Origin: a virus | Lineage: Duplodnaviria; Caudoviricetes | DNA: 64,000 nucleotides | Reading direction: 5' to 3' (one strand) | IMG/VR virus record: IMGVR_UViG_3300032280_000442 | Coordinates: 64,001-128,000 of that record | Part shown: positions 33,298-37,159 of the stretch, piece after piece | Layout of the letters: each line of letters starts with the position of its first letter | How positions within the stretch are numbered: the first letter of the stretch is position 1 | Position numbers and translations under genes: made by a program | The notes under the pieces: generated by a model | Told to the model about the DNA's origin: nothing | What the model saw: the letters and a program-made list of their open reading frames with translations, nothing else | The model's database searches: none

Positions 33298-33999
33298 ATG
33301 CAACCACAAGTTACTGAAGAACAATTAAAATCATTAAAACTATTCGCTCTTTATCTAAACTCATATGGAGCTGAAACGGCAACTAAAGATTATTATATAG
33401 AATATTGTCAGATTGAATATGAAGATGATTATTTTCGTTCACCCGAAACAAGTATACCAATCGAAACTTATAAAAAAATTGATGAAGTTTTAAAAGAAAT
33501 ACTTGAAACTAATGAATTAATTGAAAATGCCACCACAGATTGTGAGCTTAGAGGACAATTAGAGATTGAAATTGATTGCATTGAAAGAACATTAACAGCG
33601 TCCGCAACTCAATGGGAATTTGAAAGTAACGGATTTGAGTTTTCAAAAACTTTAGAAGAAATTTCTGAAGATTATAGTGAAGAAACATATAACGAAGTTT
33701 TAAGGATATTTGAACTGATTGGTGAAAATGGTGAAGGTGAAGCAAGATTTCAAGGTGGTGGTGATAGTGGGTCTTTAGATGGCGATATGTATATCAACGG
33801 GTCATCTGAAGATTTACCAAAACTTATTGAAGATATGTTATATCACTGGTTAGAAGAAACTGATGTAGATTGGTATAACAACGAAGGTGGTCAAGGTAGT
33901 TTTATATTTAGTCCAAAAAATTCAGAAATTTATTTAAATTTAGAACAAAACTATGAAGAAAATGTAACAACACCAATGAACTTTGAAATACATTTCTAA
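33298..33999 (+). CDS. DUF6878-like protein
   Basis: FQGGGDSG...WYNNEGGQG. Confidence 0.7.
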   Translation: MQPQVTEEQLKSLKLFALYLNSYGAETATKDYYIEYCQIEYEDDYFRSPETSIPIETYKKIDEVLKEILETNELIENATTDCELRGQLEIEIDCIERTLTASATQWEFESNGFEFSKTLEEISEDYSEETYNEVLRIFELIGENGEGEARFQGGGDSGSLDGDMYINGSSEDLPKLIEDMLYHWLEETDVDWYNNEGGQGSFIFSPKNSEIYLNLEQNYEENVTTPMNFEIHF

Positions 34000-34085
34000 A
34001 AATACAAAACCCCCTGATTTCTCGAGGGTTTCTATAGTCAGGTTGGAAGTTTAATAAGTAAGTTAAAAGAGCTTTATGTTTTGAC
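33998..34085. repeat. degenerate copy of terminator plus 3' end of the 35056-35240 RNA
   Basis: tatagtcaggttggaagtt...taaaagag.ttta.gttttgac matches 35051-35105. Confidence 0.85.
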
Positions 34086-34155
34086 AAATTAATGTTTTTT
34101 ATTATATTTACAAATATATGAATAAAAATAACAAATAAAATTAAAAAAAAAAATT

Positions 34156-34998
34156 ATGAAAAACTTAAAATTTTACATTTTTGGACTTTTGTTCTTGTCC
34201 TTAAATTTTATATCTTGTAACAAAGATGAAAATCTAAATCTAAATGTTGATAAACAATTAATCACTACTTCATCAAAAATTGATTTAACTAATGAATTAG
34301 ATTTTAACTCGGGTATTGATGTTTCAAACAACTATTCAAGTTATAGTAATAGATTAAATACAATTTCGCAATCAAATTCTGTATTATCTTGTGCAACAGT
34401 AACTGTTAATAATCCAACTCCCGGTGTTTTTCCAAAATCTTTTACGGTTGATTTTGGTACAGGTTGTAATAACAACGGAATAACTCGTTCCGGAATTATA
34501 ACTATAACAATTTCTAATTACATATTAAATAGTGGTAGTATAATGACCATCCAAAGAGGAAATAATTATTATGTAAATGGTGAAAAAATAGAAGGAACTA
34601 TTGTTTATGAAAATACCACTGTAAACCCTAATATTCCACAATGGACTAGAACTATAACAAACGGAAAAATTACTACTTCGTCAGGTATAGTATTTAATCA
34701 TTACGGAACAAGAACAGTTAAACAAATAGAGGGAGCAAATACATTAATTTTTGTAGACAACATTTATGAAATAACTTCAGGTAATCATACAATAATTAAA
34801 GAAGGTGGTTTTCCATTAAATATTACTGTTGTTGAACCATTAATTAAAAAATATACTTGTAATAATATTTCACAAGGAAAATTAAAACTACTTGGAAGTT
34901 TTTTAGATGGTATTTTAGATTATGGAAATAATCAATGTGATAATTTAGCTACTTACACACACTCTAATGGTAGTGCATATAACATAACATTAAATTAA
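34156..34998 (+). CDS. Bacteroidota-type lipoprotein
   Basis: LSLNFIS-C-NKDE lipobox; VDFGTGC...RSG and LDYGNNQCD motifs. Confidence 0.85.
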   Translation: MKNLKFYIFGLLFLSLNFISCNKDENLNLNVDKQLITTSSKIDLTNELDFNSGIDVSNNYSSYSNRLNTISQSNSVLSCATVTVNNPTPGVFPKSFTVDFGTGCNNNGITRSGIITITISNYILNSGSIMTIQRGNNYYVNGEKIEGTIVYENTTVNPNIPQWTRTITNGKITTSSGIVFNHYGTRTVKQIEGANTLIFVDNIYEITSGNHTIIKEGGFPLNITVVEPLIKKYTCNNISQGKLKLLGSFLDGILDYGNNQCDNLATYTHSNGSAYNITLN

Positions 34999-35020
34999 TT
35001 CATAACAAATTAAAAATACA

Positions 35021-35051
35021 AAAAACCCTCACCAAAAGTGAGGGTTTTTTT
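35021..35051. terminator. bidirectional terminator
   Basis: aaaaaccctcac-caaaa-gtgagggttttt. Confidence 0.85.
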
Positions 35052-35055
35052 ATAG

Positions 35056-35240
35056 TCAGGTTGGAAGTTCAATAATAAAATTCTAAAAGAGTTTTAAGTT
35101 TTGACCGTTTAGGTTTGAAAATTTGAATATTGAGGTTTTAATGTCCGTCTTTATCACAATCATTTATCAATGCTCTCTGAATAATTTGTAAGGAAATGGT
35201 AGTTACCATCTTGTCTTATTAAATCCCTCCCGAACTCTGA
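35056..35240 (-). ncRNA. candidate ~185-nt structured ncRNA with periodic 7-nt repeats
   Basis: 5' UCAG(A)GUU(C)GGGAG(GGA)UUUAAUAA pairs with 3' UUAUUGAACUUCCAACCUGA; terminator follows. Confidence 0.65.
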
Positions 35241-35241
35241 A

Positions 35242-35430
35242 CTATACTTTAGGAACCCCACACTCGAAACAAGTTTTAACAATGATAAAATATCCACCTT
35301 CGTTATACAACTTCAAATATTCCTCAGGGTTTTCCGGCTTAACATATTTGGTTGGTCTTAGATAAGTTCTCTCAACCGGTTTTTCTATATGACAAAAATC
35401 ACATTCGTCAAACTCCACACTACCACTCAT
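35242..35430 (-). CDS. small zinc-ribbon-like protein (start MSGSVEF at 35430)
   Basis: CDFC...CFEC. Confidence 0.7.
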   Translation of the reverse strand: MSGSVEFDECDFCHIEKPVERTYLRPTKYVKPENPEEYLKLYNEGGYFIIVKTCFECGVPKV

Positions 35431-35431
35431 A

Positions 35432-35869
35432 TTATATTTCGGTGATTTGGTTATGGTTATCCAAAATATCCTGAAGGTCTTCAATCTGACCCTCCATAAT
35501 TTTAACCATCTCATCTCTATCAACCACTGATACCTCAGCAGTTTTTACCGGTGGATTCTCTCTATTTCGTGAGTAGTAATCAGTACTCACACCTTCTGTA
35601 CAATCCAAAGATTTTAATCTTGCAATTGTAGATTTTAATTCAGACAATCTGAATATTTTATCATACACCGGAGTGTTAGCCTTGTGGATTTTGGTTTTAA
35701 GTTCCACCAACTCATTACTTTTCTCATTGATTTGCTCAAGCATATCTTTAGGAGAATATGGTCTCACATTTCCAACCTCAACTGAATTGTACTGAGACAA
35801 TCTAGCGTAAAGTTCTTGGATTTCTTTAACCAATCGGTTTTTTTCTTTTAACGATTTCTTTACGTTCAT
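35432..35869 (-). CDS. coiled-coil protein resembling the DIP1984/DUF6847 family
   Basis: LKEKNRL...YNSV...LVELKTKIHKAN...IEDLQDILDNHN pattern, recognised by eye. Confidence 0.65.
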   Translation of the reverse strand: MNVKKSLKEKNRLVKEIQELYARLSQYNSVEVGNVRPYSPKDMLEQINEKSNELVELKTKIHKANTPVYDKIFRLSELKSTIARLKSLDCTEGVSTDYYSRNRENPPVKTAEVSVVDRDEMVKIMEGQIEDLQDILDNHNQITEI

Positions 35870-35921
35870 AAATTTGTTTTATTTGTTTAACTAATATAAT
35901 CTATTTTTTTCTAAAGTCAAA

Positions 35922-36260: not shown

Positions 36261-36327
36261 ACGACAAAGATAATACTTTATTTTATATAAACAAAAAAAG
36301 GAACCAAATGTTCCTTTTTTTAATCTA

Positions 36328-37068: not shown

Positions 37069-37089
37069 AGTATATCTGTTTTGTGAGTA

Positions 37090-37120
37090 CAAAGATAATA
37101 CTATTTTTTAACTTACCAAA
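37090..37120 (-). promoter_or_regulatory. sigmaA-type promoter TTTG-N19-TATCTTTG
   Basis: consensus match; downstream TACTCACAAAACA shared with the promoter at 39789-39819. Confidence 0.8.
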
Positions 37121-37159
37121 CTTTTATAAAAAAAAAAGGAACTAATTGTTCCTTTATTT

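What the first reader, a model, noticed from the sequence alone, without database searches (positions are those of the whole stretch)
35056..35869. DIP1984-like coiled-coil gene followed by a 185-nt RNA with a 20-bp closing stem and seven ~7-nt repeats: candidate RNP system
Seen (minus strand): the 5' end UCAG-A-GUU-C-GGGAG-GGA-UUUAAUAA pairs with the 3' end UUAUUGAACUUCCAACCUGA (20 bp, bulges A, C and GGA). There is an inner hairpin AUGGU-AACU-ACCAU and a G-poor run AAAACCU CAAUAUU CAAAUUUU CAAACCU AAACGGU CAAAACU UAAAACU (35139-35090), and a strong terminator follows immediately. The bulged-C helix (GUU-C-GG/CCAAC) loosely recalls the Ro60-binding stem of Y RNAs. Inference: the upstream coiled-coil protein (35432..35869, family recognised by eye) oligomerises and binds the periodic repeats, as a protein-RNA pair of unknown function (RNA repair, toxin-antitoxin or anti-defence).
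Basis: partly seen in the sequence, partly recalled or inferred. Interest (0 to 1): 0.8.

Follow-up and report, generated by a model that had tools for sequence, protein, structure and literature searches.

The report
Phage helical-protein gene with partner RNA
Behind a small gene of unknown function, this 309-kb phage encodes a conserved folded RNA of about 190 bases that displays a row of 7-base units; the same gene-plus-RNA pair recurs in dozens of related phage contigs, matches no catalogued RNA family, and is probably an undescribed protein-RNA particle.

Summary
On the minus strand a DIP1984/DUF6847-like gene (35432-35869) is followed by a 194-nt RNA (35051-35244) and a strong terminator (35020-35050). 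That ORF is a variable insertion, absent from five of seven close relatives.

One sequence alone folds no better than shuffles (z -1.3). Comparison settles it. A covariance model finds the RNA directly 3' of the gene in 42 of 45 representative phage loci. The 23-pair closing stem is 88% paired against 54% in shuffles, and every pair shows compensatory changes. UCAA units recur every 7-8 nt in a G-poor, unpaired run. In the reverse test, all 31 loci with this RNA and enough upstream sequence to judge also have the gene.

Rfam has no match. The phage genome has no Ro60 or RtcB gene, and the bulged-C helix is not conserved, so the Y RNA idea fails. VIPR systems (RAMP protein, 5-nt GG repeats) are only an analogue.

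Most likely the RNA is made as the 3' end of the gene's transcript and serves as a docking rail for the protein. Binding is inferred, not shown. Other agents of this scan reported the same pair on other DNA. I found no paper describing it.

The parts
35893..35920 (-). Promoter-like site (TTGACT, 16 nt, TATATT) just upstream of the DIP1984-like gene
   Evidence: Consensus scan, 10 of 12 matches. Indicative only, because the host's promoter type is unknown.
35432..35869 (-). DIP1984/DUF6847-like gene, 145 aa: three long helices plus a beta hairpin
   Evidence: PF20935 27.6 bits (cut-off 27) and NF038048 33.8 bits (cut-off 70). AF2 pLDDT 86. 3kdq is the top structural match. It is the only copy in the genome.
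35242..35430 (-). 62-aa CxxC...CxxC (zinc-ribbon-like) ORF inserted between gene and RNA; variable, not part of the conserved pair
   Evidence: Its ATG lies 1 nt after the gene's stop. Absent in L001, L003, L004, L005 and L007; present in L002, L006, L028-L031 and L035. No Pfam, NCBIfam or PHROG match.
35051..35244 (-). The structured non-coding RNA, 194 nt
   Evidence: R2 covariance model: 170.6 bits, E 1e-30. It is the only full copy in the window and in the genome. No Rfam match.
35214..35244 (-). 5' strands of closing stem P1 (35227-35244) and P2 (35214-35221)
   Evidence: MFE and alifold structures; family-wide covariation.
35194..35211 (-). Hairpin P3 (AGAUGGU-AACU-ACCAUUU); variable, absent in shorter family members
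   Evidence: with one compensatory pair among close relatives. Present or absent across alignment A8.
35149..35169 (-). Three GAU units spaced 7 nt apart (UGAUAAA UGAUUGU GAUAAAG)
   Evidence: A8 columns 114-116 and 133-135 are 86-98% conserved; in columns 124-126 G and A are 95-98% and U 70%. Coordinates.
35089..35144 (-). G-poor single-stranded run of seven units ending in YAA (consensus U-Y-A-A-a-a-n), ending in the conserved box GUCAAAACUUAAAACUC (35089-35105)
   Evidence: Period of 7-8 nt; unit logo. G is 7.4% in the run against 17.7% elsewhere, and the run is more unpaired than the rest in 41 of 43 RNAs.
35053..35080 (-). 3' strands of P2 (35073-35080) and P1 (35053-35067)
35020..35050 (-). 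Intrinsic terminator ending the gene-plus-RNA transcript
   Evidence: 14-pair stem plus T-run. An equivalent terminator or T-run follows the RNA in 34 of 40 family members.
33997..34096 (-). Decayed duplicate of the RNA's last ~90 nt plus terminator (context, not a second RNA)
   Evidence: 81-85% identity to 35011-35105. Only a partial R2 hit, E 0.27. Lacks the 5' arm.

Best explanation
This is one member of an uncatalogued family of phage non-coding RNAs, 145-202 nt long. Each is made as the 3' extension of the mRNA of a DIP1984/DUF6847-like gene and ends at a terminator.

A long, irregular closing stem (P1/P2) locks the two ends together. It holds out a G-poor, largely unpaired interior that carries three GAU units and six to eight U-Y-A-A-a-a-n units at a 7-8-nt period, ending in the box GUCAAAAC-UUAAAACUC.

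Shown here:
- the RNA structure is under selection;
- its strand is the sense strand of the gene;
- the periodic units are a family-wide feature;
- the RNA is tied to the gene in both directions;
- it starts a median of 4 nt after the stop codon and is followed by a termination signal.

Inferred: copies of the small helical protein, translated from the same transcript, dock side by side on the periodic units, roughly one protomer per 7 nt. The stem would act as a stabilising handle, giving a discrete protein-RNA particle.

The particle's job is unknown. The weak hint from gene neighbourhoods is RNA or tRNA metabolism during infection.
For: Gene to RNA:
- Model R1, built only from the closest relatives, hit directly after the stop codon, always on the sense strand, in about 55 of 77 further loci.
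- Model R2 did so in 42 of 45 representatives (E <= 0.03), with one hit per locus.
- The DIP1984-like proteins in these loci are only 43-97% identical, and the flanking genes differ between lineages.

RNA to gene:
- A 17-mer scan for the conserved box over IMG/VR gave 85 stretches (80 listed as loci). In 31 loci the gene lies upstream on the same strand.
- The 42 loci without the gene have no R2 hit, so they are chance 17-mers.
- Of 7 matches too close to a locus edge to judge, 2 have the RNA.

Structure:
- 23 of 23 stem pairs show double changes; 88% are paired against 54% in shuffles (0 of 500).
- In an alignment-free test, each 5' end pairs best with its own 3' end in 14 of 45 cases, where about 1 is expected.
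- G-U pairs and wobble substitutions fit only the sense strand.

Periodicity and single-strandedness.

Not coding: a 7-nt period cannot be a reading frame, and the short ORFs over the run use different frames in different relatives (read by eye).

Co-transcription: the stop-to-RNA gap has a median of 4 nt (range -8 to 16), and 34 of 40 members have a terminator or T-run right after the 3' arm.

Selection: within close relatives the RNA is 88-99% identical where the gene's DNA is 81-86% identical.

Protein: DIP1984 fold, with invariant basic and polar residues (K8, K10, N11, Y38, K58, N65; H62 in at least 90% of sequences).
Against: - No binding, oligomerisation or expression datum exists here.
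- The interior helices I proposed (GAG/CUC, UUGA/UUAA, UGAU/GUCA) show no covariation, 60.1% paired against 60.2% in shuffles. How the interior folds is therefore unknown, and the conserved letters could be pairing partners rather than protein sites.
- Part of the gene-RNA linkage reflects general gene order among related jumbo phages. The same convergent DUF6915/DUF6878 genes follow in 9 of 36 loci.
- The high conservation of the RNA's 3' third in close relatives could partly reflect recombination, since that part is duplicated around a variable cassette.
- A zinc-ribbon ORF can sit between gene and RNA, so strict adjacency is not required.
- The stem covariation was counted on an alignment fitted to the model, which leans towards the structure.
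Confidence: 0.5

Rival explanations
1. A cis-acting 3'-UTR element. The structure protects the DIP1984-like mRNA from 3' exonucleases, or lets the protein feed back on its own message. It never acts as a separate particle.
For: The RNA starts a median of 4 nt after the stop codon. Its first pairs include the stop codon, and it is followed by a terminator in 34 of 40 loci. There is no room for a promoter of its own in most relatives.
Against: A simple stabiliser needs neither 145-202 nt, nor invariant sequence boxes, nor a 7-nt periodic unpaired run conserved across proteins only 43% identical. The inserted zinc-ribbon ORF separates the RNA from the gene without loss of the RNA. Autoregulation would still require the protein to bind the RNA, which merges this rival with the main reading.
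Confidence: 0.2
2. A decoy or sponge for a host factor. The repeated U-Y-A-A-A-A units would titrate a host RNA-binding protein or a tRNA-directed nuclease or modifier, and the DIP1984-like protein would be a helper.
For: - tRNA genes lie within 2.5 kb on the same strand in 8 of 44 representative loci. In three of them (L078, L079, L090) the gene sits inside a tRNA array.
- Some neighbours are RNA-repair-type genes: HAD_SAK_2 in 4 loci, RNA ligase in 1, AAA_33 in 1.
- The unit resembles 7-nt tRNA loops (Y-U-YAA-A-A anticodon loop, U-U-C-A-A T-loop). This comparison rests on my own knowledge.
Against: In this genome the tRNA cluster is about 89 kb away. The phage's own tRNA-Leu(UAA) loop reads UUUAAGC, and most T-loops are UUCGA, so there is no specific mimicry. 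The loci with tRNAs nearby fall into about five lineages only. A host-directed decoy does not explain the obligate link to this one gene.
Confidence: 0.15
3. A guide RNA in the manner of VIPR or CRISPR. Conserved parts of each unit would bind the protein, and the variable letters would together specify a nucleic-acid target.
For: Units alternate conserved (U-Y-A-A) and variable positions. VIPR systems show that phage proteins can polymerise on short tandem repeats for noncontiguous target recognition (bioRxiv 10.64898/2026.04.26.720920).
Against: The variable letters are not hypervariable. Among close relatives, the stretch from the third unit to the 3' end has about 11 variable columns in 84, less variation than the gene itself. 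There is no RAMP fold and there are no GG-containing 5-nt repeats. No antisense match of the run longer than 13 nt exists in the phage's own genome. Only one RNA per genome.
Confidence: 0.05
4. A bacterial-type Y RNA working with Ro60 (Rsr).
For: The ends pair into a long stem with bulges around a large loop, as in Y RNAs.
Against: No Rfam Y RNA or YrlA match even at E <= 10. No TROVE or RtcB gene in the phage genome. The stem sequence and the bulged C are not conserved across the family. The linked gene is DIP1984-like, not Ro60.
Confidence: 0.03
5. No function: an AT-rich spacer, recombination scar or type III toxin-antitoxin remnant.
For: The single-sequence fold is not significant. The 3' end is duplicated around a mobile cassette.
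Against: Family-wide covariation, periodicity, and linkage between RNA and gene in both directions. No PADLOC hit. The 7-nt repeats lie downstream of a helical protein gene, whereas type III systems have repeats of about 36 nt upstream of an RNase gene.
Confidence: 0.02

Closest known systems
DIP1984 family / Pfam DUF6847 (PF20935, NCBIfam NF038048; crystal structure 3KDQ of Corynebacterium diphtheriae; sometimes labelled 'septicolysin')
   Same: The protein matches the family HMMs and its model superposes on 3KDQ (Z 11.8, 140 residues, rmsd 4.4 A).
   Different: It belongs to a divergent phage branch, scoring 33.8 bits against the NCBIfam cut-off of 70. The family has no known function, and I found no paper linking it to an RNA.
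VIPR systems: Vipr protein plus vrRNA (bioRxiv 10.64898/2026.04.26.720920 and 10.64898/2026.04.26.720927)
   Same: Mostly phage-encoded: a small protein gene flanked by a non-coding RNA made of short tandem units with conserved and variable positions. Vipr protomers polymerise along the repeats. This is a model for how the present pair might work.
   Different: Vipr is a RAMP (RRM-type) protein, while this protein is all-helical. vrRNA units are 5-nt YNNGG, while these are 7-8-nt, G-poor U-Y-A-A-a-a-n. vrRNAs are about 100 nt and often arrayed, while here there is one 145-202-nt RNA closed by a long stem. The papers do not mention DUF6847.
TRAP with the trp leader, and HutP with the hut leader, of Bacillus (own knowledge)
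   Same: Oligomeric proteins read a row of short conserved triplets separated by short spacers in unpaired RNA. HutP's UAG triplets have a 7-nt period.
   Different: Those are cis-regulatory leaders upstream of operons and are bound by ring proteins of unrelated folds. Here the RNA lies downstream of its gene, is closed by a stem, and ends at a terminator.
Y RNAs with Ro60/Rsr (Rfam Y_RNA, YrlA)
   Same: The 5' and 3' ends pair into a long bulged stem around a large loop, and the RNA gene lies next to its protein partner's gene.
   Different: No model match, no Ro60 gene, no conserved Ro-binding helix, and a different partner protein.

Membership tests
DIP1984 / DUF6847 protein family | Match to Pfam PF20935 at or above its gathering score | tested here: met
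   27.6 bits against a cut-off of 27, E 3e-6, residues 11-116. Borderline. A genome-wide scan gives 26.8 bits, or 27.2 with neighbouring matches in the frame.
DIP1984 / DUF6847 protein family | Match to NCBIfam NF038048 (DIP1984_fam) at its curated cut-off | tested here: not met
   33.8 bits against a cut-off of 70, E 3e-8. It is a divergent relative, not a member of the curated subfamily.
DIP1984 / DUF6847 protein family | Fold of the founding structure 3KDQ | tested here: met
   Foldseek top hit 3kdq_A, probability 1.0, TM 0.55. VIA Z 11.8 over 140 of 145 residues; the next hit scores 8.6 and is a generic helical hairpin.
Y RNA / Ro60 (Rsr) system | Match to Rfam Y RNA or YrlA covariance models | tested here: not met
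   No hit at gathering score over the window, and none at E <= 10 over 34900-35500.
Y RNA / Ro60 (Rsr) system | Ro60 (TROVE) gene, often with RtcB, in the same genome | tested here: not met
   PF05731 and PF01139 are absent from the complete 308-kb phage record, while the control genomes gave matches. The host genome is unknown.
Y RNA / Ro60 (Rsr) system | Conserved Ro-binding helix with a bulged C | tested here: not met
   In alignment A8 the stem sequence differs between lineages, and the C bulge occurs only in the closest relatives.
VIPR (Vipr + vrRNA) | RAMP / RRM-fold Vipr protein | tested here: not met
   The model is three long helices plus a beta hairpin, and the best match is 3KDQ. 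The definition of Vipr is taken from the preprint.
VIPR (Vipr + vrRNA) | Tandem YNNGG (or related G-containing 5-nt) repeats | tested here: not met
   Units are U-Y-A-A-a-a-n with a 7-8-nt period, and the run is 7.4% G.
Type III toxin-antitoxin | Array of repeats of about 36 nt upstream of an endoribonuclease toxin gene, separated from it by a terminator | tested here: not met
   The repeats are 7-8 nt long and lie downstream of the gene. There is no PADLOC hit above noise.
Any Rfam 15 family | Covariance-model match | tested here: not met
   No hits at gathering score in 64 kb. The sub-threshold hits all lie on the terminator.

The most novel reading that the evidence does not exclude
DIP1984/DUF6847-like proteins form a new class of ribonucleoprotein. 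Helical protomers polymerise one per 7-nt unit along a dedicated stem-closed RNA encoded right behind their gene. Large phages carry this particle to act on tRNA or other RNA during infection. This would also give a first function to a widespread domain of unknown function, which has more than 1,800 clusters at 50% identity.
Probability: 0.35. Interest if true: 0.85.

Novelty: categorically new. Interest (0 to 1): 0.72.

Why it matters
The protein family has had a crystal structure since 2009 and no known function. A dedicated, covarying partner RNA with a periodic display of short units gives a concrete hypothesis that can be tested at the bench.

The recent VIPR work shows that phage proteins polymerising on short tandem RNA repeats can carry out unexpected biology. 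This pair has a different fold, a different repeat length and a different RNA architecture, so it would be an independent example.

It would also add a well-defined new family to the few structured RNAs known from large phages. Other agents of this scan have reported the same pair on other DNA, so this window adds one more well-resolved member rather than a first sighting.

Tried and rejected
- **Single-sequence folding significance.** z = -1.33, not informative.
- **Rfam.** Nothing at the gathering score or at E <= 10. RAGATH-27, named by earlier scan notes, is not among the sub-threshold hits either.
- **Interior helices.** The ones I proposed by eye (AGAG/CUCU, UUGA/UUAA, UGAUnnn/nnnGUCA) show no covariation, 60.1% paired against 60.2% in shuffles. 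RNAalifold on the family alignment predicts none.
- **Phage T5.** Neither PF20935 (E <= 1) nor my 38-sequence profile (E <= 10) finds a relative in AY543070. I could not reproduce by sequence the T5 link stated in earlier scan notes.
- **GenBank phages.** Only two uncultured huge phages carry a relative, at 31-36% identity. No DNA match.
- **Canonical bacterial DUF6847.** Found in 2 of 401 sampled Bacteroidota genomes. The phage RNA model does not hit either locus.
  - L109 has tRNAs just upstream, about 310 nt of non-coding sequence with a T-arm-like hairpin downstream, and a weak CAC period of 7.
  - L110 has a terminator right after the gene and no periodicity.
  - The extension to bacteria is therefore inconclusive here.
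- **tRNA-loop mimicry.** The phage's own tRNA loops do not match the units specifically.
- **Antisense targets of the run.** Nothing beyond 13-nt chance matches in the phage's own genome.
- **Weak uL29 similarity.** Pfam E 0.004 and PDB E 0.047, both below cut-offs, and uL29 is absent from the structural hit lists. I treat it as noise.
- **Cognate versus non-cognate duplex test.** It works, but it is noisy, because many lineages share G-rich and C-rich arm motifs.

Full report
**Setting.** The window is bases 64001-128000 of a complete 308,574-bp virus record with direct terminal repeats. It is about 30% G+C and packed with small genes, mostly on the minus strand. This is a jumbo phage known only from a metagenome.

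**What is at the flagged place (minus strand).**
- A promoter-like site lies at 35920-35893.
- A 145-aa gene occupies 35869-35432.
- A 62-aa CxxC...CxxC ORF (35430-35242) starts one base after that gene's stop.
- About 190 nt of non-coding sequence follows.
- A 14-bp terminator hairpin with a T-run lies at 35050-35020.

Its energy is ordinary for this composition: z = -1.33, with 21 of 200 shuffles folding as well. Rfam finds nothing in the whole window. At E <= 10 it reports only sub-threshold terminator look-alikes.

**The protein.**
- Pfam DUF6847 scores 27.6 bits against a cut-off of 27.
- NCBIfam DIP1984_fam gives E 3e-8 but only 33.8 bits against a cut-off of 70.
- An AlphaFold model (pLDDT 86; helices 3-27, 40-86 and 115-142, plus a beta hairpin) has 3KDQ, the DIP1984 crystal structure, as its clear best match. 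Foldseek gives probability 1.0 and TM 0.55. VIA gives Z 11.8 over 140 residues, with the next hit at 8.6.

It is therefore a divergent DIP1984-fold protein. The profile finds 1,834 clusters at 50% identity in the large protein library. I found no paper giving the family a function.

**Comparative evidence that the RNA is real.** IMG/VR holds at least 256 stretches encoding relatives of the protein, of which I fetched 96 loci.
- In five of the seven closest relatives the zinc-ribbon ORF is missing, and the non-coding stretch abuts the gene's stop codon. That stretch is 88-99% identical where the gene's DNA is 81-86% identical.
- In distant relatives (43-53% protein identity, different flanking genes) the gene is again followed by about 200 nt with no ORF and the same layout. 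The arms differ in sequence but still pair, for example GGAUUGGG with CCCAAUCC, or a 23-bp perfect stem in L058.
- A covariance model built only from the closest relatives hit directly behind the gene, always on the sense strand, in about 55 of 77 further loci.
- A second model, built from 29 of those hits, found it in 42 of 45 representatives at E <= 0.03, with one hit per locus.
- On that alignment the 23 stem pairs are 88.0% paired against 54.1% in shuffles (0 of 500) and 37-48% when the partner is slid. All 23 pairs show changes on both sides. The alignment was fitted to the model, which favours the structure.
- As an alignment-free control, each 5' end forms its most stable duplex with its own 3' region in 14 of 45 cases, where about one is expected.
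- G-U pairs and wobble substitutions place the RNA on the gene's sense strand.

**The interior.** Several features are conserved across the family:
- an ACAAnyU motif;
- three GAU units;
- a run of U-Y-A-A-a-a-n units;
- a terminal box, GUCAAAAC-UUAAAACUC.

TCAA-to-TCAA spacings peak at 7-8, 14-16, 22-24 and 29-30 nt, with 33 pairs at d = 7 against 0.34 in shuffles. The run is 7.4% G against 17.7% elsewhere, and it is predicted to be less paired than the rest in 41 of 43 RNAs.

A 7-nt period cannot be a reading frame, and the short ORFs over the run use different frames in different relatives. The helices I proposed inside the interior show no covariation. Hairpin P3 is present in the longer members and absent in the shorter ones.

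**Linkage in both directions.**
- Gene to RNA: see above.
- RNA to gene: a scan of IMG/VR for the 17-nt box returned 85 stretches (80 listed as loci).
  - In 31 loci the gene lies upstream on the same strand.
  - The 42 loci without it have no match to the RNA model, so they are chance 17-mers.
  - Of 7 matches too close to a locus edge to judge, 2 have the RNA.
- The phage has one gene and one full RNA.

**Transcript anatomy.** The RNA begins a median of 4 nt after the stop codon (range -8 to 16, or 187 where the zinc-ribbon ORF is inserted). It is 145-202 nt long. A hairpin terminator follows in 27 of 40 cases, and a T-run directly after the stem in 7 more. It is therefore made as the 3' end of the gene's transcript. 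Whether it is then cut free cannot be told here.

**Function.** The data support a dedicated pair. The most economical mechanism is that the protein, translated next to its RNA, binds the periodic units, with the stem as a handle. That step is an inference.

Context gives only weak hints.
- tRNA genes lie within 2.5 kb in 8 of 44 loci, and inside tRNA arrays in one lineage.
- A few neighbours are RNA-repair-type genes.
- In this genome, however, the tRNA cluster is 89 kb away, and there is no RtcB or Ro60 gene.

The Y RNA reading fails on every testable feature. VIPR systems are the nearest published analogue in logic. They differ in protein fold, repeat length and composition, and RNA architecture, and the variable letters here are not hypervariable.

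**Relation to earlier notes of this scan.** Other agents reported the same kind of pair on other DNA, including bacteria, giant viruses and phage T5.
- I confirm the pair for this phage branch.
- I could not find a sequence relative in T5.
- My small bacterial sample was inconclusive.

**Verdict.** This is a real, uncatalogued structured RNA family obligately linked to a DIP1984-fold gene. It is probably a protein-RNA particle. Its function is unknown.

Noticed in passing
window 33997-34096 and 35011-35105; gene 34156-34998 (+): The last ~90 nt of the RNA plus its terminator are duplicated (81-85% identity) on either side of a plus-strand gene with a lipoprotein-type signal peptide (MKNLKFYIFGLLFLSLNFISC...). 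The cassette is absent in L002 and L005. In L006 and L007 a 305-aa NAD-binding epimerase-like gene sits at the same spot, and L006 carries three repeat copies. The RNA's 3' end appears to act as a recombination site for gene cassettes.
   Followed up: partly
window 35242-35430 (-): The 62-aa CxxC...CxxC ORF is an insertion/deletion polymorphism at exactly the gene-RNA junction. It is present in two separate subgroups (this phage, L002 and L006; L028-L031 and L035) and absent in their nearest relatives. It has no family match.
   Followed up: partly
window 36264-36321 and 37089-37159: Two intergenic modules, 81-88% identical, each holding a terminator hairpin (AAAAAGGAAC...GUUCCUUUUU) and an A/T-rich stretch, follow successive minus-strand genes. 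This looks like a repeated terminator-promoter cassette.
   Followed up: no
L078, L079, L090 (1-2450); L084 (56-378); L012 (3911-5051): In some relatives the DIP1984-like gene starts about 50 nt after the last tRNA of an 11-12-tRNA array. L012 has tRNA-Ser, a tmRNA (tag GVNNYALAA) and tRNA-Met just downstream of the RNA.
   Followed up: partly
L109 (about 1187-2240): A canonical bacterial DUF6847 gene (163 bits) in a Bacteroidota genome lies right behind tRNA-Gly and tRNA-Val. About 310 nt of non-coding sequence follows, containing a tRNA T-arm-like hairpin (GUGGGUUCGAUCCCCAC), a short CACAnnn period-7 run and a terminator.
   Followed up: partly
L010 1803-2939: The gene upstream of the DIP1984-like gene is an RNA ligase (Pfam RNA_ligase plus PHA02142 OB-fold domain). 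Four other loci have a HAD_SAK_2 'Swiss Army Knife' RNA-repair domain gene as a neighbour.
   Followed up: no
G000:C1:227640-228669 (outside the window): A 10-nt piece of the run (UCAAAUUUUC) recurs at 75-nt steps. This points to a tandem repeat array elsewhere in the phage genome.
   Followed up: no
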